From Rhodothermales bacterium (GTDB taxonomy: Bacteria; Bacteroidota; Rhodothermia; Rhodothermales; VXPQ01): a stretch of DNA of 64,000 nt. A program made the position numbers and the translations under genes. The stretch lies in NCBI GenBank assembly GCA_965248175.1, contig OZ252093.1, positions 2,429,449-2,493,448 on the forward strand. The letters are read 5' to 3'. The notes below the pieces were generated by a model. The model had not been told where the DNA came from and searched no databases. It saw nothing but the letters and a program-made list of their open reading frames with translations. Positions 3,316-12,463 of this stretch are shown here, piece after piece; position 1 is the stretch's first letter; every line of letters begins with the position of its first letter.

Positions 3316-4584
3316 CTATCGTTGGATGGAAGAGAACCAGGAGCGAAGCGCGTCACGAGTCAGAACCACCATGTCTTCGCCGGTCGGTGGGGATACCGGA
3401 TAGGTCATGCCTTCCACCTGCACCGTAACGCTATCGAGCTGCTGCTCCAGTATGATGCGATCCGCCATGCGGAACGTCATCGAACCTCCGCGGCTTATCC
3501 AGTACGGGCGCCGCAGATCGTTATCCACCGTCACCCGGATCGGCGCCACGCTACCCTTGTCCGCCACGATCACGATATTCAGCGTATCGGGAAGGGATTG
3601 TATGGGGATGTCGTTCGCCGGGACCGTGGCATCGGCCATACCGTTCGCCGGGACCGTGGCATCGGCCATACCGTTCGCCGGGACCGTGGCATCGGCCATA
3701 CCGTTCGCCGGGATCGCTGCATCGGCCATACCGTTCGCCGGGATCGCTGCATCGGTCATACCGTCTGCCGGGACCGTGGCATCGGTCACATCGTTCGCCG
3801 GAGCGACTCGCGTCAGGCCCCAGACGCCCAGCCCGATCACTACAACGAGCACGCCAAGAAATATCCACCGGGGATCCGGCCTGCTACCGGCGGGCGCCTG
3901 CGCGTCTGCGCCTGTTGAAGCCTTGGAGGAAGTCCCGGCAGAAGTTCTTCGGGGGGAAGGCGCCTTGGGCGATGAGATTTCTCGGGCGGCAGATGTCTTC
4001 GCCAATGGGGCTTCCCGGGCAGCAGGCTGTTCAGTAGACGAAGCCGCCGAATCGGGCACTTCGGAATCGGGTACTTCGGAATCGGGCACTTCGGAATCGG
4101 GTACCTCGGAATCACTCTGCCGGGTTGGTTCAGCAGATTCTTCATGCGGGATTTTGGTGGATTCCTGCCCGGTCTGCTCTGACGAAGTCGCCTCAGTTAC
4201 CTGATCCGATTCAGGAGCAGCGGGTTCCTTCCGGCCTGTTTTCTTCTTTTGCTTCGGGCTCTCCTCCTGATGCTCTTCCTCGGGCTCGCCCAGATACGCT
4301 TGGGCCAGCGAGCCGGTATATCGTCCCTTCATCGCCAATTCGAACGCCTCCAGCGCCATCTCCACATCCATATTCAGATACTCTGCGTATCCACGCACGA
4401 AGAGCCGGAGGTATACCTTGCTGAACTGAGAATGACCGATAAGCGCATCGTGCTCGAAACGCTTGATCATATCGTACGCCATCTTGGTGGCATCGTGTAT
4501 ATCGGCCAAAGAAACGCCGCGATCTCTGCGGATACGACGCAGGTCCCGGGCAAATCGTGTTCCGCGTTCAGCTTCGCCAGACAT
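3316..4584 (-). CDS. RodZ-like cytoskeleton/HTH membrane protein with two internal tandem-repeat tracts
   Basis: N-terminal HTH (FARDLRRIRRDRGVSLADIHDATKM), acidic low-complexity linker, one TM helix (WIFLGVLVVVIGLGVWGL) and a C-terminal beta-rich domain as in RodZ/DUF4115 proteins. Confidence 0.7.
   Translation of the reverse strand: MSGEAERGTRFARDLRRIRRDRGVSLADIHDATKMAYDMIKRFEHDALIGHSQFSKVYLRLFVRGYAEYLNMDVEMALEAFELAMKGRYTGSLAQAYLGEPEEEHQEESPKQKKKTGRKEPAAPESDQVTEATSSEQTGQESTKIPHEESAEPTRQSDSEVPDSEVPDSEVPDSEVPDSAASSTEQPAAREAPLAKTSAAREISSPKAPSPRRTSAGTSSKASTGADAQAPAGSRPDPRWIFLGVLVVVIGLGVWGLTRVAPANDVTDATVPADGMTDAAIPANGMADAAIPANGMADATVPANGMADATVPANGMADATVPANDIPIQSLPDTLNIVIVADKGSVAPIRVTVDNDLRRPYWISRGGSMTFRMADRIILEQQLDSVTVQVEGMTYPVSPPTGEDMVVLTRDALRSWFSSIQR
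3611..3802. repeat. 30-bp tandem repeat, about 6.4 copies, in frame inside the RodZ-like gene
   Basis: Unit tcgttcgccgggaccgtggcatcggccata repeated head to tail from 3611; encodes (P)ANGMADA(T/A)(V/I) decapeptides just after the TM helix. Confidence 0.95.
4047..4115. repeat. 15-bp tandem repeat, about 4.6 copies, in frame inside the RodZ-like gene
   Basis: Unit cggaatcggg(c/t)actt repeated; encodes SEVPD x4-5 in the cytoplasmic linker. Confidence 0.95.
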
Positions 4585-4852
4585 ATATGAGATACTCTCT
4601 GCTTAAGTGCGCTGTACAATATCTGCCGAAGACCCGACAGGCCAGCCCCTGGCATTGGAGAAATCGAGAACGCCTGCCGGGAGACCTTCCAGGGGGCCGC
4701 TATCGCCCCCGAACCGGAAAGATATAAAAGCCGGGGTGCATGGAAAAGCGAAACCGGGAGGAAGATGCGAATTATTAGGGGGGGCAAGGGGTATGAACTA
4801 TCGTTTCGCAAACGGGTTTGTTACCGGCGTACGCATTCACGGTATCCTCAAT

Positions 4853-5992
4853 ATGGCCATGACCCCTCCGCAAATCCGGTCTGTTCGTATCCAGGGCTTC
4901 CGCTCGCTGGCGGACTGCGAACTCCAGAACCTGGGCATGGCAACCGTCCTGATCGGTCCCAATGGAGCCGGCAAGTCCAATTTTATCCGCTTCTTCGAGA
5001 TGATGAGTTGGATGCTGAAATCCCGGAAGCTTGGGGATTTCGTTGCAATGCATGGAGGCGCAAGCGATCAGTTGTTCGGCGGAAGTGAAAAAACGACCCG
5101 GATAAAGGCCACTATATCCCTGCAAACAGAAAAGGGACTGAACGACTACAGGTTCGAATTGGGGCACGGTCATCCCGACCGGCTGATCTTTATGAACGAA
5201 GCTTTCCGATTCAGCCGTACGGGCTCGTCCACACCCGCTGATTGGCAGCATCTCGAAAGCGGTCACCCGGAAGCCCAAATCGTCGAAGCCGCCCAATCGT
5301 CGGAATATCTTCCGGATGTCAATCGGACAACCGCACGGGCTATTGTCCGTCTCCTGCGGGATTGCGCGGTGTACCAATTCCACGACACATCCGACACGTC
5401 CAGTTTCAAGAAGCGATGGGATGCATCCGATAACAACTATCTGCGCTCGCACGGTGGCAATCTGGCTTCTATCCTGCACCGATTGGAGCAGGAAGACATA
5501 AAAAGATTCAACCTGATCTGCCGGCACATTACACGCATTTTGCCTGTGTTCGAACGCTTCGAGATCGAAGAAAGCTACGGGAAGGTGTTACTACGCTGGG
5601 TAGCGAAGGGCATGGACCAAACGCTCGGACCTCATCTCACTTCCGATGGTTCGCTACGGTTCTTTGCGCTCGTGACCTTGCTGAATCTTCCTCAGGAGAT
5701 GCTACCCAGCGTTCTTTTACTGGACGAGCCGGAACTTGGCCTGCATCCTGCCGCTATCTCTCTGATCGGCGACATGATCAAAGGCCTCGCCACAGAACGG
5801 CAAATCATCGTGGCGACGCAATCTCCCCTACTCGTTGATCTCTTTGGCCTCGACGAAATCATCGTGCTTGAAATGGAGGATGGTAAAACGCAGTTCAGAT
5901 CGCTTCCGCAAACTGAATATCAACATTGGCTTGACAGTAATTTCACCACGGGCGAACTCTGGCGGAAAAACGTTCTGGGAGGGCGTCCGTGA
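4853..5992 (+). CDS. ABC/SMC-like AAA ATPase (AAA_15/AAA_21-type), first gene of a two-gene cassette
   Basis: Walker A LIGPNGAGKSNF, signature-like TSDGSLRFFAL, Walker B VLLLDEPELGLHP, then IVATQSPLLVD. The ORF track starts at 4607, but the family-typical N-terminus (IRSVRIQGFRSL) favours Met 4853/4859; 4793 is also possible. Confidence 0.85.
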   Translation: MAMTPPQIRSVRIQGFRSLADCELQNLGMATVLIGPNGAGKSNFIRFFEMMSWMLKSRKLGDFVAMHGGASDQLFGGSEKTTRIKATISLQTEKGLNDYRFELGHGHPDRLIFMNEAFRFSRTGSSTPADWQHLESGHPEAQIVEAAQSSEYLPDVNRTTARAIVRLLRDCAVYQFHDTSDTSSFKKRWDASDNNYLRSHGGNLASILHRLEQEDIKRFNLICRHITRILPVFERFEIEESYGKVLLRWVAKGMDQTLGPHLTSDGSLRFFALVTLLNLPQEMLPSVLLLDEPELGLHPAAISLIGDMIKGLATERQIIVATQSPLLVDLFGLDEIIVLEMEDGKTQFRSLPQTEYQHWLDSNFTTGELWRKNVLGGRP

Positions 5993-6636
5993 TCCGTCTG
6001 GCAATATCCGTGGAGGGGCAGACCGAGGAGGAATTCGTCAAGAAAATTCTTGTAGGCCCTCTCAGGACAAAGAAAGTCAAGGCGACGCCAATTCTTCTCG
6101 GCCGCGCCGGAGAAAAAATCAAAGGGGAAGGCGGCGGAGACGTTTCAGTTGCACGGCTCACCGAGGATATGGCGTGTCTTTATGAATCTTATGATTTCGT
6201 CACATCGCTGGTCGATTTCTACGGATTTCGCGACAAGGGAGACAAATCGGTCGAAGAATTGGAACAGCATGTGCGCCAGAAAATAAACGATAAAATTGGC
6301 CGAAATTGGAACGAAACGAGAATATTCCCCTATGTCCAGCGCCACGAGGTAGAGGGTTTATTGTTTTCCAGAGTGGATGTTTTTGAAAGCTTGCCTTATG
6401 CTTCAAAGGAATCGGTTAATAAACTGCGAAAAATTCGTTCGGATTTTAAGACTCCGGAAGATATAAACGACAGCAGGAAAACCGCTCCGAGTAAACGGAT
6501 CATGCAACTCATACCGCGTTACAGAAAACGCGGGGATAGTCCTCTTCTTGCCGAGCAAATCGGACTTGAGACGATTCGCGCCGAATGTCCCCGATTTAAT
6601 GCCTGGGTGGAGCATATGGAAGCGCTGGGTTCGTGA
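5989..6636 (+). CDS. DUF4276 family protein (Toprim-like by motif pattern), second gene of the cassette
   Basis: 215 aa. GTG start overlaps the upstream stop (GTGA at 5989-5992). MIRLAISVEGQTEEEFVKKIL...SLVDFYGFRD...VEGLLF matches my memory of DUF4276 proteins. Confidence 0.8.
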   Translation: MIRLAISVEGQTEEEFVKKILVGPLRTKKVKATPILLGRAGEKIKGEGGGDVSVARLTEDMACLYESYDFVTSLVDFYGFRDKGDKSVEELEQHVRQKINDKIGRNWNETRIFPYVQRHEVEGLLFSRVDVFESLPYASKESVNKLRKIRSDFKTPEDINDSRKTAPSKRIMQLIPRYRKRGDSPLLAEQIGLETIRAECPRFNAWVEHMEALGS

Positions 6637-6755
6637 GGTTGTTCCTGTTATACTGATAACTGACAATTACTAAACTACTTCACACATCTCCCCGGATCCG
6701 TGTCTTTCTCCTTGCGTAAAATATACCTTTGGATTGCCTTCACGCAAGCCCACCC

Positions 6756-6829
6756 AGGCCCGTAGCTCAATTTGGCAGAGCAACTGACTCTTAATCAGTG
6801 GGTTGGGGGTTCGAGTCCCCCCGGGCCTA
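6756..6829 (+). tRNA. tRNA-Lys (anticodon CTT)
   Basis: Manual cloverleaf: acceptor AGGCCCG/CGGGCCT, D arm GCTC-AATTTGGCA-GAGC, anticodon arm ACTGA-CTCTTAA-TCAGT, 5-nt variable loop, T arm GGGGG-TTCGAGT-CCCCC, discriminator A. No encoded CCA. Confidence 0.9.
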
Positions 6830-6897
6830 CACGATTCCTCTCCGGCGCGTCTCCCCCGGGCCTACACGATTCCTCTCCGGCGCGTCTCCCCCGGGCC
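6818..6897. repeat. 35-bp perfect tandem direct repeat (2 full copies + 10 bp) starting inside the 3' end of tRNA-Lys
   Basis: cccccgggcctacacgattcctctccggcgcgtct at 6818-6852 and 6853-6887, then cccccgggcc at 6888-6897. The first 12 nt are the last 12 nt of the tRNA. Confidence 0.95.
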
Positions 6898-7043
6898 CCC
6901 TCGCCTCTTCAGAGCGTCTCCCCTCGTGCGCCCCAGCCTCTTCGGGGCGCCTTCCGACAGGTTATCCACTTCGCCTGATCGCCTGGCCCCCTTCCGCCAC
7001 CCCCGTGCGTCTCGCACCCCCCCTTGCAGGAATCCGGAGACCC

Positions 7044-7442
7044 TCATCCACCCAGCAGGGTAACCCCGTCAAGTTCCGCAGCTTTTCTGTCAAACGTGCA
7101 AAGGAAGTCGGCTCCAGCCCGTTCGGCAGCCGCCAGAATCATGAGGTCGGCAAAACCCGCACCGCTCTCGCGATAACGAACGGCACAGCGAACCACATCC
7201 CGACTCGCTTCAACAACAAGGTGCTCCGTTGCCGTCAGTTCTTCCAGCACCATGGCAATGTCGTCGCGGGAGCACTTGTAGGCCCGTTCCAGTACCCAAA
7301 CCAGCTCCAGAACAACCTCTCGGCTAATAAAGCCGGGGGATTCCTTTGCGAGGTTCTCCAAAACTTTCCTGGCGATCACACCCTGCTCCGGGTCGTCGCA
7401 CACCAGGTACCGAACAAGCACATTGGTATCCAGGGCAATCAT
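7044..7442 (-). CDS. vapC: PIN-domain toxin VapC
   Basis: MIALDTNVLVRYL... with acidic PIN residues (D5, E in SREVVLEL, FADLMI, TFDR). The ORF-track N-terminal extension is discarded; the start overlaps the vapB stop (ATGA at 7439-7442). Confidence 0.85.
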   Translation of the reverse strand: MIALDTNVLVRYLVCDDPEQGVIARKVLENLAKESPGFISREVVLELVWVLERAYKCSRDDIAMVLEELTATEHLVVEASRDVVRCAVRYRESGAGFADLMILAAAERAGADFLCTFDRKAAELDGVTLLGG

Positions 7443-7672
7443 TGCTCGCACGCCCCCTCGGCTATAGCCTCCTCCATTTCCTCCAGGGAAACGGCAGGGC
7501 CCTCGCACTTGAGCACCCCGAAAAGCCGACCGATCGGGCGCACCGGTACAATACGCACCTCGCCATCAAAAACAAGGTAATTCACTTTATCCCCTGCTTT
7601 TATCCCAAGCATTTGGCGAATGAGCTTTGGTAATGTTGTTTGCCCTTTGCTGGAAATAGTGGACGAAAGCAT
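7439..7672 (-). CDS. vapB: AbrB/MazE/SpoVT-type antitoxin VapB
   Basis: 77 aa from Met at 7672: MLSSTISSKGQTTLPKLIRQMLGIKAGDKVNYLVFDGEVRIVPV, a swapped-hairpin AbrB-like fold signature, directly upstream of and overlapping vapC. Confidence 0.8.
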   Translation of the reverse strand: MLSSTISSKGQTTLPKLIRQMLGIKAGDKVNYLVFDGEVRIVPVRPIGRLFGVLKCEGPAVSLEEMEEAIAEGACEQ

Positions 7673-10390: not shown

Positions 10391-12463
10391 ATGAAACATA
10401 TTTGCCCGCTTTCTCCAACCCCCTTGTGGCTGTTTTTGTTGATCCTCGGGGTCTTCGGTGCAGAGCAGGTTTCAGGACAGGCGCCGCAGCAGTCTTTTAC
10501 TCATGCCGCTGCGCCGGATCGGGCTGATCCCTCGGCGGAATCCGTAGCCTACTGGATCTTTCTGGATGGGAAACCGGATGCGCCTCCGGTCGAAATAAAC
10601 GCGCGGGCCCGGGCGCGCCGAGTGCGCCGCGGCCAGCCGTATGCCGCCGAGCTGGACAAAAGCGTCTCCCCAACATACATCCGTATACTCGAAGGGCTGG
10701 GAGTGCAAATCCGGGCGGAAAGCCGCTGGCTCAATGCGGTGAGCGCGGAGTTGACGCAGGAATTGCTCGCCCGGATCCGAGAAATGGATTTTGTGCGGGA
10801 CATACGCCCGCTGGTGCGGCGTACCGCTACGTTTCCGGAACCGGTTCCGGGGACGGCGCCTGTGTCAAAGACGGCAGACCATCACTACGGCTCTTCCCGA
10901 ACGCAGCTTGCCTTGATGAACGCGATCGAACCGCTTGAGCGAGGCATCAATGGCAAAGGGGTACGTATCGGGTTTCTCGACTCGCCGTTCTCCGAATTCA
11001 ACCATACGGCATTCGATTCCCTGAAAAGCGATAACCGCCTCATTGCCATAAGGAATTTTACGGGGCAAACGGACGATACCAACACGCACGGCATGCGGGT
11101 AGCTTCCGTGGCCGTAGGGTATCAGGAAGGGCAGTTGATAGGCCCGGCGCATGAAGCCGAAGTGCTTGCAGCTATCACGGAATATGTGCCCACGGAGACA
11201 AATCGGGAGGAGGACAATCTCGTCGCCGGCCTCGAGTGGCTGGAGAGCGAGGGGGCGGATGTTGTCAATATCTCCCTCGGTTATACGGAGTTCGACGATG
11301 GACAAAATGACTACGCCGTGAGTGATCTCGACGGCGACACGAGGATCACGACGATCGCCGTGGATCAGGCGGCGGCGCTCGGCGTGGTCGTGGTAACGAG
11401 CGCGGGAAACTCGGGTTGTTCGAGTCCGGCCCTTTGCTGGTACTATATCTCCACGCCCGCCGATGCGGATTCTGTGATTGCGGTAGGAGGCGTTGAGCCC
11501 GATTCATCCCGCTATTCTTCCGGTTCGTTCGGTCCCACGGCCGACGGCCGCATCAAACCGGACGTTTCCGCCATGGGCACCGCTGTATACACTGCCCACT
11601 CTACCAACCAGTTTTCCTACAGGCGCGGCACATCGTACTCCGGCCCGCTCGTAGCGGCGGTCGCCGCGCAAATATTACAGGTCAATCCGGGGCTTTCCCC
11701 AATAGATGTGCGCGACATTTTGCGCATGACGGCCCATCAATCGGCAGCTCCGGACAACTCGCTGGGCTGGGGCATCGTAAACGCCGATGCGGCGGTCAAG
11801 ATGGCGGAAAGTTTGATCAATCCGCCGCCTCCGCCTCCTCCGCCACCACCACCGCCTCCGCCGAGCACGATTGCGGATGCCCCGGAGAATCTACAGGCCT
11901 TTGCGGGGAATGCACAGGTGATATTCAGTTGGAATGCGCCGAGCAACGACGGCGGAGCAGACATCACCGGCTACGCCTACCGGTACAAAGAAAGCGGCGG
12001 AGACTTGACTGCCTATACGGACATTCCCGAAAGCGGCCCTGGTGAAGCAAACGCCCGCAGCTATACGGTCACAGGGCTCACGAACGGACTCGAGTATGTC
12101 TTCCATGTGCAGGCAGTGAACGAGCATGGCGGGGGGCTGCCCGAAGAGGTGACGGTGACACTGCCCAGCAGAGTGAACACAGAAAGCGAGGAGCTACCGA
12201 CCGAGGTGGTGCTTTGGGGCAACTATCCGAACCCGTTCAATCCGGAGACCACCATACGGTATGCATTGCCGCAGGCAGGCAACGTACGTCTTGCGGTGTA
12301 CGACCTGCTTGGTCACGAAGTGGCGGTGCTCGTCGACGAACCGAAACCCGCAGGCCATCATGCGACGCGCTTCGATGCAGGCGATCTGCCCAGCGGTGCG
12401 TACGTCTACCGGTTGCAGGCGCAAGACAAAATCATGGTGCAAATCATGATGCTCGTCAAGTGA
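10391..12463 (+). CDS. secreted S8 (subtilisin-like) serine peptidase with poly-Pro linker, FN3 domain and T9SS C-terminal sorting domain
   Basis: Signal peptide; triad contexts GFLDSPF (Asp), THGMRVASVAVG (His), GTSYSGPLVAAVAAQ (Ser) and SAGNSG. Then a PPPPPPPPPPPPPPP tract, an FN3-like block (NLQAFAGNAQVIFSWNAPSNDGGADITGY...) and a C-terminal NYPNPFNPETTIRY...YVYRLQA sorting domain. Confidence 0.93.
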   Translation: MKHICPLSPTPLWLFLLILGVFGAEQVSGQAPQQSFTHAAAPDRADPSAESVAYWIFLDGKPDAPPVEINARARARRVRRGQPYAAELDKSVSPTYIRILEGLGVQIRAESRWLNAVSAELTQELLARIREMDFVRDIRPLVRRTATFPEPVPGTAPVSKTADHHYGSSRTQLALMNAIEPLERGINGKGVRIGFLDSPFSEFNHTAFDSLKSDNRLIAIRNFTGQTDDTNTHGMRVASVAVGYQEGQLIGPAHEAEVLAAITEYVPTETNREEDNLVAGLEWLESEGADVVNISLGYTEFDDGQNDYAVSDLDGDTRITTIAVDQAAALGVVVVTSAGNSGCSSPALCWYYISTPADADSVIAVGGVEPDSSRYSSGSFGPTADGRIKPDVSAMGTAVYTAHSTNQFSYRRGTSYSGPLVAAVAAQILQVNPGLSPIDVRDILRMTAHQSAAPDNSLGWGIVNADAAVKMAESLINPPPPPPPPPPPPPPSTIADAPENLQAFAGNAQVIFSWNAPSNDGGADITGYAYRYKESGGDLTAYTDIPESGPGEANARSYTVTGLTNGLEYVFHVQAVNEHGGGLPEEVTVTLPSRVNTESEELPTEVVLWGNYPNPFNPETTIRYALPQAGNVRLAVYDLLGHEVAVLVDEPKPAGHHATRFDAGDLPSGAYVYRLQAQDKIMVQIMMLVK

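What the first reader, a model, noticed from the sequence alone, without database searches (positions are those of the whole stretch)
4853..6636. Translationally coupled ABC-type ATPase + DUF4276 (Toprim-like) cassette next to tRNA-Lys: candidate uncharacterised defence module
Seen in sequence:
- ORF1 has Walker A GPNGAGKSN, an SMC/ABC-like signature TSDGSLRFFAL and Walker B VLLLDEPELGLHP.
- ORF2 (215 aa) starts at a GTG that overlaps the ORF1 stop (GTGA, 5989-5992), which suggests co-translation.
- ORF2 opens with a strand followed by acidic residues (IRLAISVEGQTEEEF) and later has SLVDFYGFRD. This layout resembles the Toprim Glu ... DxD arrangement.
- The 1.8 kb is visibly more A+T-rich than its neighbours.
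- It is wedged between a housekeeping rodZ-like gene and tRNA-Lys. The tRNA carries an att-like repeat, and vapBC sits just beyond it.

Established knowledge: an ABC/AAA ATPase with a Toprim-type partner is the architecture of OLD-family nucleases, PARIS (AriA/AriB) and AbiL-type abortive-infection systems. I know of no experimentally assigned function for DUF4276.

Inference: this pair is a stand-alone nucleic-acid-targeting immunity or abortive-infection module of a type not yet characterised.
Basis: partly seen in the sequence, partly recalled or inferred. Interest (0 to 1): 0.8.

Follow-up and report, generated by a model that had tools for sequence, protein, structure and literature searches.

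The report
HEC-01 ATPase plus Toprim-like defence pair
This two-gene cassette is a real, intact copy of an already catalogued candidate anti-phage system (PADLOC "HEC-01": an ABC-type ATPase plus a DUF4276 Toprim-like protein) that was horizontally inserted next to a tRNA-Lys gene, so it is a new member of a known kind, not a new type.

Summary
Two overlapping + strand genes (GTGA at 5989-5992) encode an ABC/SMC-head-type ATPase and a 215-aa DUF4276 protein, in a segment about 7 GC points below the rest of the window.

Corrections:
- The ATPase most likely starts at ATG 4859 (377 aa), not 4853.
- The "DxD" is only D76-F-Y.
- The "att-like repeat" is a 35-bp tandem duplication at the tRNA 3' end. 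It flanks nothing and lies on the other side of the tRNA.

Both proteins match PADLOC's HEC-01A and HEC-01B models over their full length (2e-116, 7.8e-63). HEC-01 is a published "Hma-embedded candidate" described as ABC ATPase + TOPRIM. It gave no protection in one E. coli test and protected against at least one phage in another.

In 80 genomes from many phyla:
- The pair is adjacent in 79.
- The NTGA stop/start overlap is kept in 75.
- The cassette is GC-poorer than its flanks in 79.

Close relatives show the same rodZ–tRNA-Lys site empty. Another Rhodothermales genome carries the same 1.9-kb unit inside a restriction-modification/ATPase island.

My own structural and profile tests of the Toprim link were weak. 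Nuclease activity, trigger and target remain inferred.

Verdict: new member of a known candidate system, of modest interest.

The parts
4795..4858 (+). Conserved 5' leader that travels with the cassette. It contains the short palindrome CGTTT-CGC-AAACG. Promoter or operator role is unknown.
   Evidence: Similarity to L006, which sits at an unrelated genomic locus, begins at window 4795, and the leader is nearly identical there. Similarity to the empty sites in L087 and L088 ends at about 4799-4805. No sigma-70-type promoter was found, which says little for a Bacteroidota genome.
4859..5992 (+). HEC-01A: ABC/SMC-head-type ATPase, 377 aa.
   Evidence: PADLOC HEC-01A model PDLC04175 at 2e-116, covering 1-362 of 363 profile positions. 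Pfam AAA_21 at 1.3e-28. AlphaFold2 model pLDDT 83. Foldseek best hits are PtuA, SMC head and Rad50, at E 3e-15 to 1e-12. The start codon was placed by comparing homologues. dN/dS is 0.07-0.15.
4955..4981 (+). Walker A motif GPNGAGKSN. The catalytic Lys is K39 in 377-aa numbering.
   Evidence: G33, N35, G36, G38, K39 and S40 are invariant in 32 homologues.
5639..5671 (+). ABC signature-like motif TSDGSLRFFAL.
   Evidence: T261 to R267 are invariant.
5711..5749 (+). Walker B and D-loop, VLLLDEPELGLHP.
   Evidence: L288, D289, E290, P291, E292, L293, G294, L295, H296 and P297 are invariant.
5810..5827 (+). H-loop position, VATQSP, with Gln in place of the usual His.
   Evidence: A319, T320, Q321, S322 and P323 are invariant.
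5977..5992 (+). Translational-coupling junction: the Shine-Dalgarno-like GGGAGGG (5977-5983) lies inside the conserved LGGRP codons, followed by the GTGA stop/start overlap (5989-5992).
   Evidence: The NTGA overlap is kept in 75 of 80 loci (GTGA 51, TTGA 17, ATGA 7), with a GGAGG-like stretch upstream.
5989..6636 (+). HEC-01B: DUF4276 protein of 215 aa, the putative Toprim-like metal-dependent nuclease effector.
   Evidence: Pfam DUF4276 at 1.2e-46. PADLOC HEC-01B model PDLC04188 at 7.8e-63. AlphaFold2 model pLDDT 91.8, with beta1(2-8)-alpha-beta2(30-36)-alpha-beta3(70-76)-alpha-beta4 followed by a helical C-terminal half. E9, G10, E13, D76, E122 and E157 are invariant in 98 family representatives. 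dN/dS is 0.23-0.27.
6007..6036 (+). Toprim motif-I-like SVEGQTEEEF (E9, E13), at the end of beta1.
   Evidence: hhalign places it on phage P2 Old residues 394 onward (LLVEGKTET) at E 0.053.
6205..6234 (+). SLVDFYGFRD, with D76 at the end of beta3. This is the position of the Toprim DxD, but here it reads D-F-Y.
6337..6366 (+). QRHEVEGLLF, holding further conserved acidic residues after beta4: E122 is invariant and E120 nearly so.
6637..6674 (+). 3' tail of the transferred unit.
   Evidence: Similarity to L006 ends at window 6674 and similarity to L005 breaks at 6657.
4803..6700 (.). Approximate extent of the segment that is present here but absent from the same site in relatives L087 and L088. 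There, about 128-134 bp of unrelated spacer take its place.
   Evidence: blastn and MAFFT comparison with the empty sites. No target-site duplication, terminal inverted repeat, integrase or transposase was seen.
6756..6830 (+). Context only: the resident tRNA-Lys(CTT) gene. It is also present at the empty sites, so it is not cargo of the cassette.
6818..6897 (+). Context only: a 35-bp tandem duplication (2.3 copies) of the tRNA 3' end plus downstream sequence.
   Evidence: It is single-copy in L004, L005, L087 and L088.

Best explanation
The pair is a stand-alone copy of the HEC-01 type of candidate anti-phage/anti-mobile-element system.

Components:
- Gene A (4859-5992) encodes a compact ABC/SMC-head-like ATPase.
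- Gene B (5989-6636) encodes a DUF4276 protein, a divergent Toprim-like metal-dependent nuclease.
- The two are translated as a unit through a conserved NTGA stop/start overlap preceded by a GGAGG-like stretch. This should keep them in a fixed ratio.

Origin: the roughly 1.9-kb unit (about 4795-6674) was acquired horizontally. It sits in a variable hotspot between the rodZ-like gene and tRNA-Lys of a Rhodothermales genome, probably sponge-associated.

Proposed working, by analogy with OLD, Gabija and PARIS:
1. The ATPase oligomer binds the nuclease partner and keeps it in check.
2. ATP binding or hydrolysis is coupled to sensing of an infection cue, either a phage protein or foreign DNA.
3. 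The Toprim-like partner is then licensed to cut nucleic acid, which stops the invader directly or by abortive infection.

Shown here: family identity, gene architecture, motif conservation, purifying selection, and horizontal, accessory behaviour.

Inferred: physical A:B complex, nuclease activity, trigger, substrate and outcome.
For: Family identity:
- Full-length PADLOC HEC-01A (2e-116) and HEC-01B (7.8e-63) matches.
- Pfam AAA_21 and DUF4276.

ATPase:
- The model matches PtuA, SMC and Rad50 heads at E 1e-12 to 3e-15.
- Walker A, signature and Walker B motifs are invariant.

DUF4276 partner:
- The model is confident (pLDDT 91.8).
- It has a Toprim-like beta-alpha order, with invariant E9 after beta1 and D76 after beta3.
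- OLD-like_TOPRIM is the commonest second Pfam family among 98 representatives (8 members, all sub-threshold).
- hhalign places VEGQTE on P2 Old's VEGKTE.

Comparative genomics:
- The ATPase lies directly upstream of the DUF4276 gene in 79 of 80 loci.
- The NTGA overlap is kept in 75 of 80.
- dN/dS is 0.07-0.27.
- The cassette is GC-poorer than its flanks in 79 of 80 loci, by 6.5 points on average.
- The site is empty in L087 and L088. The same unit at 84% nucleotide identity sits in L006/L085 next to an MmeI-type IIG enzyme, an AAA_15/21+DUF3226 pair and a C5 methylase.
- Among the 129 nearest-gene neighbours 8 are HmaC and 3 are IIG/DrmMI methylases, and among the 129 next-but-one neighbours 4 are HmaB.

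Literature:
- HEC-01 was described as ABC ATPase + TOPRIM with a conserved metal site.
- One HEC-01 representative protected E. coli B against at least one of T4, T5 and T7.
- DUF4276 has been assigned to the Toprim superfamily, with Mad4 as a homologue. Deleting mad4 reduced MADS protection.
Against: - The HEC-01 tested by its discoverers gave no protection against any phage in their E. coli panel.
- The positive report is qualitative and concerns a different representative.
- My structure searches with the ORF2 model found nothing significant. Against PDB, the best OLD hit was 6p74 at E 0.12 and TM 0.28. Against viral proteins nothing was significant.
- A profile search of PDB sequences found nothing.
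- The canonical DxD is reduced to a single Asp.
- Most homologous loci lie among metabolic genes, not in defence islands.
- In this window the only neighbouring accessory module is vapBC.
- No experiment exists for this copy.
Confidence: 0.65

Rival explanations
1. The pair is a selfish toxin-antitoxin-like addiction module. The DUF4276 nuclease is a toxin held in check by the ATPase. The pair persists and spreads because losing it is harmful, and it has no dedicated anti-phage role.
For: - Tight two-gene coupling with a fixed ratio.
- It sits next to another TA pair, vapBC.
- Most copies lie outside defence islands.
- Cross-phylum spread at 50-61% (partner) and 49-74% (ATPase) identity.
- A negative phage panel for HEC-01.
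- The Pfam AAA_21 description refers to AbiEii / type IV TA.
Against: - One HEC-01 protected against phage.
- There is recurrent embedding in Hma and adjacency to restriction-modification genes.
- TA behaviour and abortive-infection defence are not mutually exclusive, so this is partly a matter of emphasis.
Confidence: 0.12
2. The system is directed mainly against plasmids or other non-phage mobile DNA, in the way Wadjet uses an SMC-type ATPase with the Toprim protein JetD, and not against phages.
For: - ABC/SMC-head-like fold.
- Toprim-like partner.
- No phage protection in the original test.
- Absent from 50,697 phage genomes.
Against: - The 377-aa ATPase has no long coiled-coil arms (secondary structure). 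It therefore cannot extrude loops the way JetC does.
- There are no kleisin or KITE partners.
- One HEC-01 did protect against a lytic phage.
Confidence: 0.1
3. The pair has a housekeeping role in DNA repair or RNA processing, such as a RecF/Rad50-like ATPase working with an RNase M5-like Toprim enzyme.
For: - Placement beside ligA and rodZ-like genes in the window.
- Fold similarity to Rad50 and SMC heads.
Against: - Absent from the same site in close relatives (LigA 91% and 87% identical), and found at a different locus in another.
- GC is lower than the flanks in 79 of 80 loci.
- Patchy distribution across phyla.
- No conserved operon partner.
Confidence: 0.04
4. The cassette is a decaying, non-functional remnant.
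For: No promoter was detected by the sigma-70 scan.
Against: - Both reading frames are intact.
- All catalytic motifs are kept.
- dN/dS is 0.07-0.27 against two relatives.
- The sigma-70 scan does not apply to Bacteroidota-type promoters.
Confidence: 0.03

Closest known systems
HEC-01 (Hma-embedded candidate 01; PADLOC-DB v2; Payne et al., bioRxiv 10.1101/2024.01.29.577857)
   Same: Both proteins match the HEC-01A and HEC-01B models over their full length. The architecture is the same: an ABC ATPase gene followed by a DUF4276/TOPRIM gene on one strand.
   Different: This copy is not embedded in an Hma system. It stands alone beside tRNA-Lys and vapBC. It belongs to a highly conserved subgroup found mainly in metagenome-assembled genomes of Rhodothermales, Binatia, Dehalococcoidia, Latescibacterota, Nitrospirales and Proteobacteria.
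PARIS (AriA ABC ATPase + AriB DUF4435 Toprim nuclease)
   Same: A two-gene ABC ATPase + Toprim-superfamily effector. In PARIS the ATPase scaffold releases the nuclease on sensing a phage trigger, and the nuclease degrades tRNA (title and abstract of the PARIS papers). This is the best mechanistic template.
   Different: ORF2 has no match to DUF4435/AriB models at E<0.1. The 'AriA' hit is only the generic AAA_21 profile (5.5e-28, against 2e-116 for HEC-01A). By the PARIS papers' abstracts AriA is 53-55 kDa and AriB 35 kDa; the proteins here are shorter (377 and 215 aa). PARIS is often carried in viral genomes, whereas ORF2 has no homologue in 50,697 phage records.
OLD-family nucleases and Gabija GajA
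   Same: An ABC ATPase combined with a Toprim nuclease. The best PDB sequence hit of ORF1 is the Thermus scotoductus OLD ATPase (8.8e-06). Eight of 98 DUF4276 representatives give sub-threshold OLD-like_TOPRIM hits.
   Different: In phage P2 Old the Toprim motif lies in the C-terminal part of the same 586-aa protein (residue 394 onward), whereas here ATPase and Toprim-like partner are separate genes. DxD is reduced to D-x-Y. Fold similarity to 6p74 is not significant.
MADS (Mad3 ATPase + Mad4 DUF4276 inside an 8-gene methylation-associated system)
   Same: The same two domain types sit side by side. mad3 and mad4 deletions reduce defence. Mad4 is cited as a DUF4276 homologue.
   Different: The NCBIfam MAD3 score is 92 bits against a cut-off of 420. 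ORF2 hits no mad4 model. The mandatory MAD6-8 genes are absent from the neighbourhood.
AbiL (AbiLi ATPase + AbiLii RloB-like) and Menshen (NsnABC)
   Same: An AAA_15/21-type ATPase is paired with a small Toprim-superfamily partner. ORF1 gives weak hits to AbiLi (2.8e-21) and NsnB (2.5e-14).
   Different: ORF2 is not RloB or AbiLii (no hit). There are no NsnA or NsnC genes.

Membership tests
HEC-01 (PADLOC candidate system) | Gene A matches a HEC-01A profile | tested here: met
   PDLC04175 at 2e-116, protein residues 3-379 on profile positions 1-362 of 363.
HEC-01 (PADLOC candidate system) | Gene B matches a HEC-01B profile | tested here: met
   PDLC04188 at 7.8e-63, protein residues 1-213 on profile positions 12-226 of 230.
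HEC-01 (PADLOC candidate system) | A and B are adjacent on one strand | tested here: met
   4-bp GTGA overlap at 5989-5992. The ATPase lies directly upstream of the DUF4276 gene in 79 of 80 relatives, and the NTGA overlap is kept in 75.
HEC-01 (PADLOC candidate system) | Confers defence against phage | not testable with these tools
   Literature only: negative, and positive for another representative.
Pfam DUF4276 (PF14103) | Score above the gathering threshold | tested here: met
   159.8 bits against a cut-off of 30.2, covering profile positions 1-192 of 192.
Toprim superfamily | beta1-alpha-beta2-alpha-beta3-alpha-beta4 core | tested here: met
   The order of secondary-structure elements in the pLDDT 91.8 model is E2-8, H11-26, E30-36, H54-65, E70-76, H88-106, then short strands at 112-117. 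The strand order within the sheet could not be inspected.
Toprim superfamily | Invariant Glu just after beta1 | tested here: met
   E9, in the motif VEGxTE, is invariant in 98 representatives. It aligns with VEGKTE of P2 Old.
Toprim superfamily | DxD motif after beta3 | tested here: not met
   The motif is D76-F77-Y78. D76 is invariant, Y78 is conserved in at least 90% of sequences, and there is no second Asp. The invariant E122 and E157 (E120 in at least 90% of sequences) may compensate, but this is inference.
Toprim superfamily | Significant sequence or structure similarity to a recognised Toprim domain | tested here: inconclusive
   - Foldseek hit to OLD 6p74 at E 0.12, TM 0.28.
- Nothing significant in BFVD.
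- OLD-like_TOPRIM sub-threshold in 8 of 98 representatives, best 0.054.
- hhalign to P2 Old at E 0.053.
ABC ATPase (SMC/Rad50/OLD branch) | Walker A, Q-loop, signature, Walker B and D-loop motifs, plus the ABC fold | tested here: met
   The motifs are invariant. Foldseek matches PtuA, SMC and Rad50 at E 1e-12 to 3e-15. The H-loop His is replaced by the invariant Q321.
PARIS | AriB (DUF4435) effector | tested here: not met
   ORF2 has no DUF4435 or AriB hit at E<0.1 in Pfam or PADLOC.
OLD family nucleases | ATPase and Toprim domains in one polypeptide | tested here: not met
   They are two separate genes here.
MADS | MAD3 equivalog score, and the mandatory MAD6-8 genes nearby | tested here: not met
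   92.4 bits against a cut-off of 420. The neighbours are ligA, rodZ-like, tRNA, vapBC and an ion channel.
tRNA-integrated genomic island | An integrase, and direct repeats of the tRNA 3' end flanking the element on the 3' side of the tRNA | tested here: not met
   - No integrase is present.
- The cassette lies 5' of the tRNA.
- The repeat copies are tandem with nothing between them.
- No target-site duplication is seen at the junctions.

The most novel reading that the evidence does not exclude
HEC-01B may be a second, independent lineage of ATPase-caged Toprim effector that acts on RNA, such as tRNA, and not on DNA. It would use an unusual metal site: a single Asp after beta3 plus the conserved E120/E122/E157 cluster. 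The strongly conserved subgroup seen here (49-74% identity for the ATPase and 50-61% for the partner across at least eight phyla, apparently typical of sponge-symbiont communities) would then be a community-shared cassette exchanged between unrelated symbionts without any mobility gene of its own.
Probability: 0.15. Interest if true: 0.6.

Novelty: new member of a known kind. Interest (0 to 1): 0.3.

Why it matters
HEC-01 is one of the more abundant candidate defence systems in environmental genomes, yet it has contradictory phage tests and no biochemistry.

What this locus adds:
- A natural presence/absence polymorphism with defined borders (about 4803-6700).
- A conserved 5' leader that travels with the cassette.
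- A deeply conserved translational-coupling junction.
- A short list of invariant residues for mutagenesis: K39, D289 and E290 in A; E9, E13, D76, E122 and E157 in B.

It also shows that the canonical Toprim DxD is not kept in this family. That is worth knowing before assuming OLD-like chemistry.

It does not reveal a new kind of system.

Tried and rejected
1. Alternative ORF1 starts at GTG 4607, ATG 4793 and ATG 4853. These were rejected. 4793 is GTG in L005 and absent in L006, 4853 is ATA in L006, and homologue starts converge on 4859.
2. tRNA-integrated island. Rejected.
3. A link between PARIS-style tRNA cleavage and the adjacent tRNA-Lys gene. Rejected as coincidence: the tRNA is present at the empty sites, and only 3 of 80 loci have a tRNA within 1 kb.
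4. Foldseek of the ORF2 model against PDB and BFVD. Nothing significant.
5. Profile search of PDB sequences with the DUF4276 alignment. Nothing.
6. Building an OLD-Toprim profile from phage P2 Old. Its C-terminal part found no plasmid homologue and no PDB relative, so only a single-sequence hhalign was possible.
7. Exact look-up of the window's ORF2. Not on record.
8. Sigma-70 promoter scan. Zero sites, which says little for Bacteroidota.
9. Rfam scan of 4400-7100. Only the tRNA reached its family threshold.
10. Pfam on the ORFs inserted in split ATPase genes (L007, L029) and on the 57-aa ORF of L004. No hits.
11. Search for terminal repeats of the cassette. Only short, chance-level matches.
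Full report
**1. Observation**

- An ORF ends at TGA 5990-5992. It carries Walker A GPNGAGKSN (4955-4981), an ABC-signature-like TSDGSLRFFAL (5639-5671) and Walker B/D-loop VLLLDEPELGLHP (5711-5749).
- A 215-aa ORF starts at GTG 5989, overlapping the stop as GTGA. It carries SVEGQTEEEF and SLVDFYGFRD.
- GC is 0.538 for ORF1 and 0.485 for ORF2, against 0.591 for the rest of the window.
- tRNA-Lys(CTT) is at 6756-6830.
- A PIN/MazE-type vapBC pair lies at 7044-7672 on the - strand, and an HTH_25 rodZ-like gene at 3316-4584 on the - strand.

Three corrections are needed.
- The ATPase start. ATG 4853 is ATA in relative L006, and ATG 4793 is GTG in L005 and absent in L006. The starts of about 75 homologues map onto ATG 4859 or within a few codons of it. 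The modal homologue length is 376-377 aa. I therefore place the gene at 4859-5992 (377 aa).
- The Toprim 'DxD'. It is only D76-F-Y78.
- The 'att-like repeat'. It is a 35-bp tandem repeat at 6818-6897 (2.3 copies, 100% identical). Its unit is the last 13 nt of the tRNA plus 22 nt of downstream sequence. Relatives have one copy, nothing lies between the copies, and the cassette is on the 5' side of the tRNA.

**2. What it is**

- ORF1 matches Pfam AAA_21 at 1.3e-28, and ORF2 matches DUF4276 at 1.2e-46.
- In PADLOC-DB, ORF1 matches HEC-01A full length (PDLC04175, 2e-116) and ORF2 matches HEC-01B (PDLC04188, 7.8e-63).
- The next-best named systems for ORF1 score far lower: AriA (which is the generic AAA_21 profile), mad3, AbiLi, NsnB, Old and GajA, at 1e-28 to 1e-13. 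ORF2 hits only HEC-01B models.
- NCBIfam gives only a sub-threshold MAD3 hit, at 92 bits against a cut-off of 420.

HEC-01 is a published 'Hma-embedded candidate'.
- It was described as an ABC ATPase with a TOPRIM-domain partner whose metal site overlays that of Burkholderia OLD.
- In that study it protected against none of the E. coli phages tested.
- A later study reported that a randomly chosen HEC-01 from a cold-seep genome protected E. coli B against at least one of T4, T5 and T7.
- A 2025 analysis of Menshen assigns DUF4276 and RloB to the Toprim superfamily and names Mad4 of MADS as a DUF4276 homologue.
- mad3 and mad4 deletions reduce MADS protection.

The statement that the type is uncharacterised and that DUF4276 has no functional evidence is out of date, although the biochemistry is still missing.

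**3. Structure and motifs**

*ATPase.*
- The model (pLDDT 83) matches PtuA of Septu and retron systems, SMC heads and Rad50 at E 3e-15 to 1e-12. It is therefore an ABC-type and not an AAA+ ATPase, as the HEC paper also concluded.
- In 32 homologues, Walker A, Q71, the TSDGSLR signature, DEPE and LGLHP are all invariant. The H-loop position is an invariant Gln, in ATQSP.
- The last 15 residues are predicted disordered yet conserved (W368, K370, N371, G374, G375, P377). Part of that constraint is the GGAGG-like ribosome-binding stretch for gene B, which lies in the LGGRP codons.

*DUF4276 partner.*
- The model is confident (pLDDT 91.8). It has a beta-alpha-beta-alpha-beta-alpha-beta N-terminal half and a helical C-terminal half.
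- Across 98 representatives of the whole family (3,844 clusters at 50% identity), the invariant residues are E9, G10, E13, F16, D76, E122, E157, P167 and F203.
- E9 sits at the end of beta1 and D76 at the end of beta3, which are the Toprim positions.

My independent tests of the Toprim link were weak.
- Foldseek against PDB found nothing significant. OLD 6p74 came fifth, at E 0.12 and TM 0.28.
- Nothing was significant in BFVD or in PDB sequences.
- OLD-like_TOPRIM is the only Pfam family recurrently hit below threshold, in 8 of 98 representatives.
- hhalign places ISVEGQTEE on P2 Old LLVEGKTET at E 0.053.

I therefore treat 'Toprim-like' as probable, resting largely on the published analyses. 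The strict DxD criterion is not met.

**4. Comparative genomics**

A scan of one genome per species returned 480 relatives, and the best 80 loci were kept. They come from Rhodothermales, Binatia, Dehalococcoidia/Chloroflexota, Latescibacterota, Nitrospirales, Vicinamibacterales, Alpha- and Gammaproteobacteria and others.
- The ATPase gene lies immediately upstream of the DUF4276 gene in 79 of 80 loci.
- The stop/start overlap is NTGA in 75 of 80: GTGA 51, TTGA 17, ATGA 7.
- The cassette is GC-poorer than its flanks in 79 of 80 loci, by 6.5 points on average.
- Identity to the window is 49-74% for the ATPase and 50-61% for the partner in the loci outside Rhodothermales. That is high for a defence gene and implies recent cross-phylum transfer.

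I then made a crude neighbour census, taking the two nearest called ORFs on each side in about 66 loci.
- Among the nearest genes, HmaC/DUF499 appeared 8 times, IIG/DrmMI-type methylases 3 times and another AAA_15/21 ATPase 3 times.
- Among the next-but-one genes, HmaB appeared 4 times and further AAA_21 ATPases 5 times.
- The rest were diverse metabolic genes. No integrase or transposase was among the frequent families.

This agrees with the original paper: embedding in Hma is recurrent, but most copies are not in classical defence islands. ORF2 has no homologue in 50,697 phage records, and 13 plasmids carry the pair.

**5. This locus**

- The window is syntenic with Rhodothermales genomes L001-L005 at 90-96% nucleotide identity. 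These carry the same cassette and vapBC.
- A genome whose LigA is 91% identical (L087) has rodZ-like, tRNA-Lys and the ion channel, with neither the cassette nor vapBC.
- A genome at 87% LigA identity (L088) has vapBC but no cassette.
- The genome at 78% (L086) has other small genes at the site.
- In L087 and L088, about 128-134 bp of unrelated spacer replace window ~4803-6700. I saw no target-site duplication, terminal inverted repeat or recombinase.
- The L086 genome does carry the cassette elsewhere (L006/L085). There, only window 4795-6674 is similar (84% nucleotide identity), including a 60-bp leader upstream of the start codon. It sits among an MmeI-type IIG restriction-modification gene, an AAA_15/21+DUF3226 pair, DUF6338, and a C5 methylase with a HATPase_c_3 protein.

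The pair therefore moves as a discrete unit of about 1.9 kb. The rodZ–tRNA-Lys interval is a variable hotspot.

- dN/dS against L005 and L006 is 0.07-0.15 for A and 0.23-0.27 for B, so both are under purifying selection.
- Against L005, dS of A (0.117) equals that of ligA (0.117), but dS of B is 0.32. This suggests that the 3' half was exchanged by recombination.

**6. Mechanism**

Most likely (about 0.65) this is a working HEC-01 module.
1. A compact ABC ATPase is co-translated with the partner in a fixed ratio.
2. The ATPase holds a DUF4276 Toprim-like nuclease in check and senses an infection cue.
3. The nuclease is then licensed to cut nucleic acid.

PARIS (scaffold-and-release, tRNA cleavage) and OLD/Gabija (DNA nicking and cleavage) are the templates. 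Everything after 'ATPase + Toprim-like partner under purifying selection in a horizontally moved cassette' is inference. Rivals are a TA-like addiction module, an anti-plasmid role, a housekeeping role, and decay. Their weights are given in the Rival explanations section.

**7. Comparison and novelty**

- Membership in HEC-01 and DUF4276 is met.
- Membership in PARIS, OLD, AbiL, MADS and Menshen fails on defining features: the effector family, the fusion of the two domains, or the accessory genes.

This is a new member of a known candidate kind. Interest is modest. The system is catalogued and its architecture has already been interpreted. What is new here:
- the empty-site evidence and the unit borders;
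- the conserved coupling junction;
- the observation that the DxD is not kept;
- a possible cross-phylum pool in sponge-type communities. This last point rests on taxon names, on one 'Spongia' bin, and on an 89%-identical LigA from sample SB0662, whose other bins are sponge-symbiont Poribacteria. The inference is not verified.

Noticed in passing
window 6818-6953: A 35-bp unit is repeated 2.3 times at 100% identity. The unit is the last 13 nt of tRNA-Lys plus 22 nt downstream. A degenerate 33-nt pair follows at 6888-6953. Relatives L004, L005, L087 and L088 have a single copy. The origin (slippage, or a scar of an excised element) is unknown.
   Followed up: partly
window 3612-3801 and 4049-4113 (rodZ-like gene, - strand): In-frame tandem repeats of 30 bp (6.3 copies) and 15 bp (4.3 copies) encode low-complexity peptide repeats. 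Copy number differs from L005, seen as alignment gaps.
   Followed up: partly
window 5989-6636 compared with L005 10001-10648: Synonymous divergence of gene B (dS 0.32) is about three times that of gene A (0.117) and of ligA (0.117) in the same genome pair. This suggests the effector half was swapped by recombination.
   Followed up: partly
L087 7034-7520, L088 5603-7831, L086 5477-7770: The interval between the ion-channel gene and the rodZ-like gene around tRNA-Lys is a variable hotspot. It is empty in L087, holds vapBC only in L088, and holds unrelated small genes without Pfam hits in L086.
   Followed up: yes
L004/L005 10669-10877: An extra stretch of about 208 bp lies between gene B and tRNA-Lys and is absent from the window. 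In L004 it is called as a 57-aa ORF with no Pfam hit. It may be a fragment of a lost gene.
   Followed up: partly
L085 1871-3613: A second ATPase + small partner pair (AAA_15/21 + DUF3226) lies in the same island as the L006 cassette. The DUF3226 protein also opens with a VEGKDD motif after a first strand (hhalign E 0.22, weak). This hints at a wider class of Toprim-like partners.
   Followed up: partly
L007 8643-10001 and L029 7574-10001: The HEC-01A gene is split at about the same residue (150-156) in a Binatia and a Bryobacterales genome, by inserts of roughly 250 bp and 1.3 kb. The 415-aa ORF in the L029 insert has no Pfam hit.
   Followed up: partly
L049 7615-10001: Two HEC-01A-like ATPase genes (64% and 66% identical to the window's) lie in tandem upstream of a single DUF4276 gene.
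   Followed up: no
window 10391-12463: The S8 peptidase with a Por secretion tail is 690 aa here, against 568-574 aa in relatives. It carries a run of 14 prolines and an fn3 domain.
   Followed up: no
loci L005-L084: The closest relatives of the cassette come almost entirely from metagenome-assembled genomes of taxa typical of sponge microbiomes (Binatia, Latescibacterota, SAR202/Dehalococcoidia, Nitrospirales, Azotimanducaceae, a 'Spongia' bin). The sample origin was not verified.
   Followed up: partly
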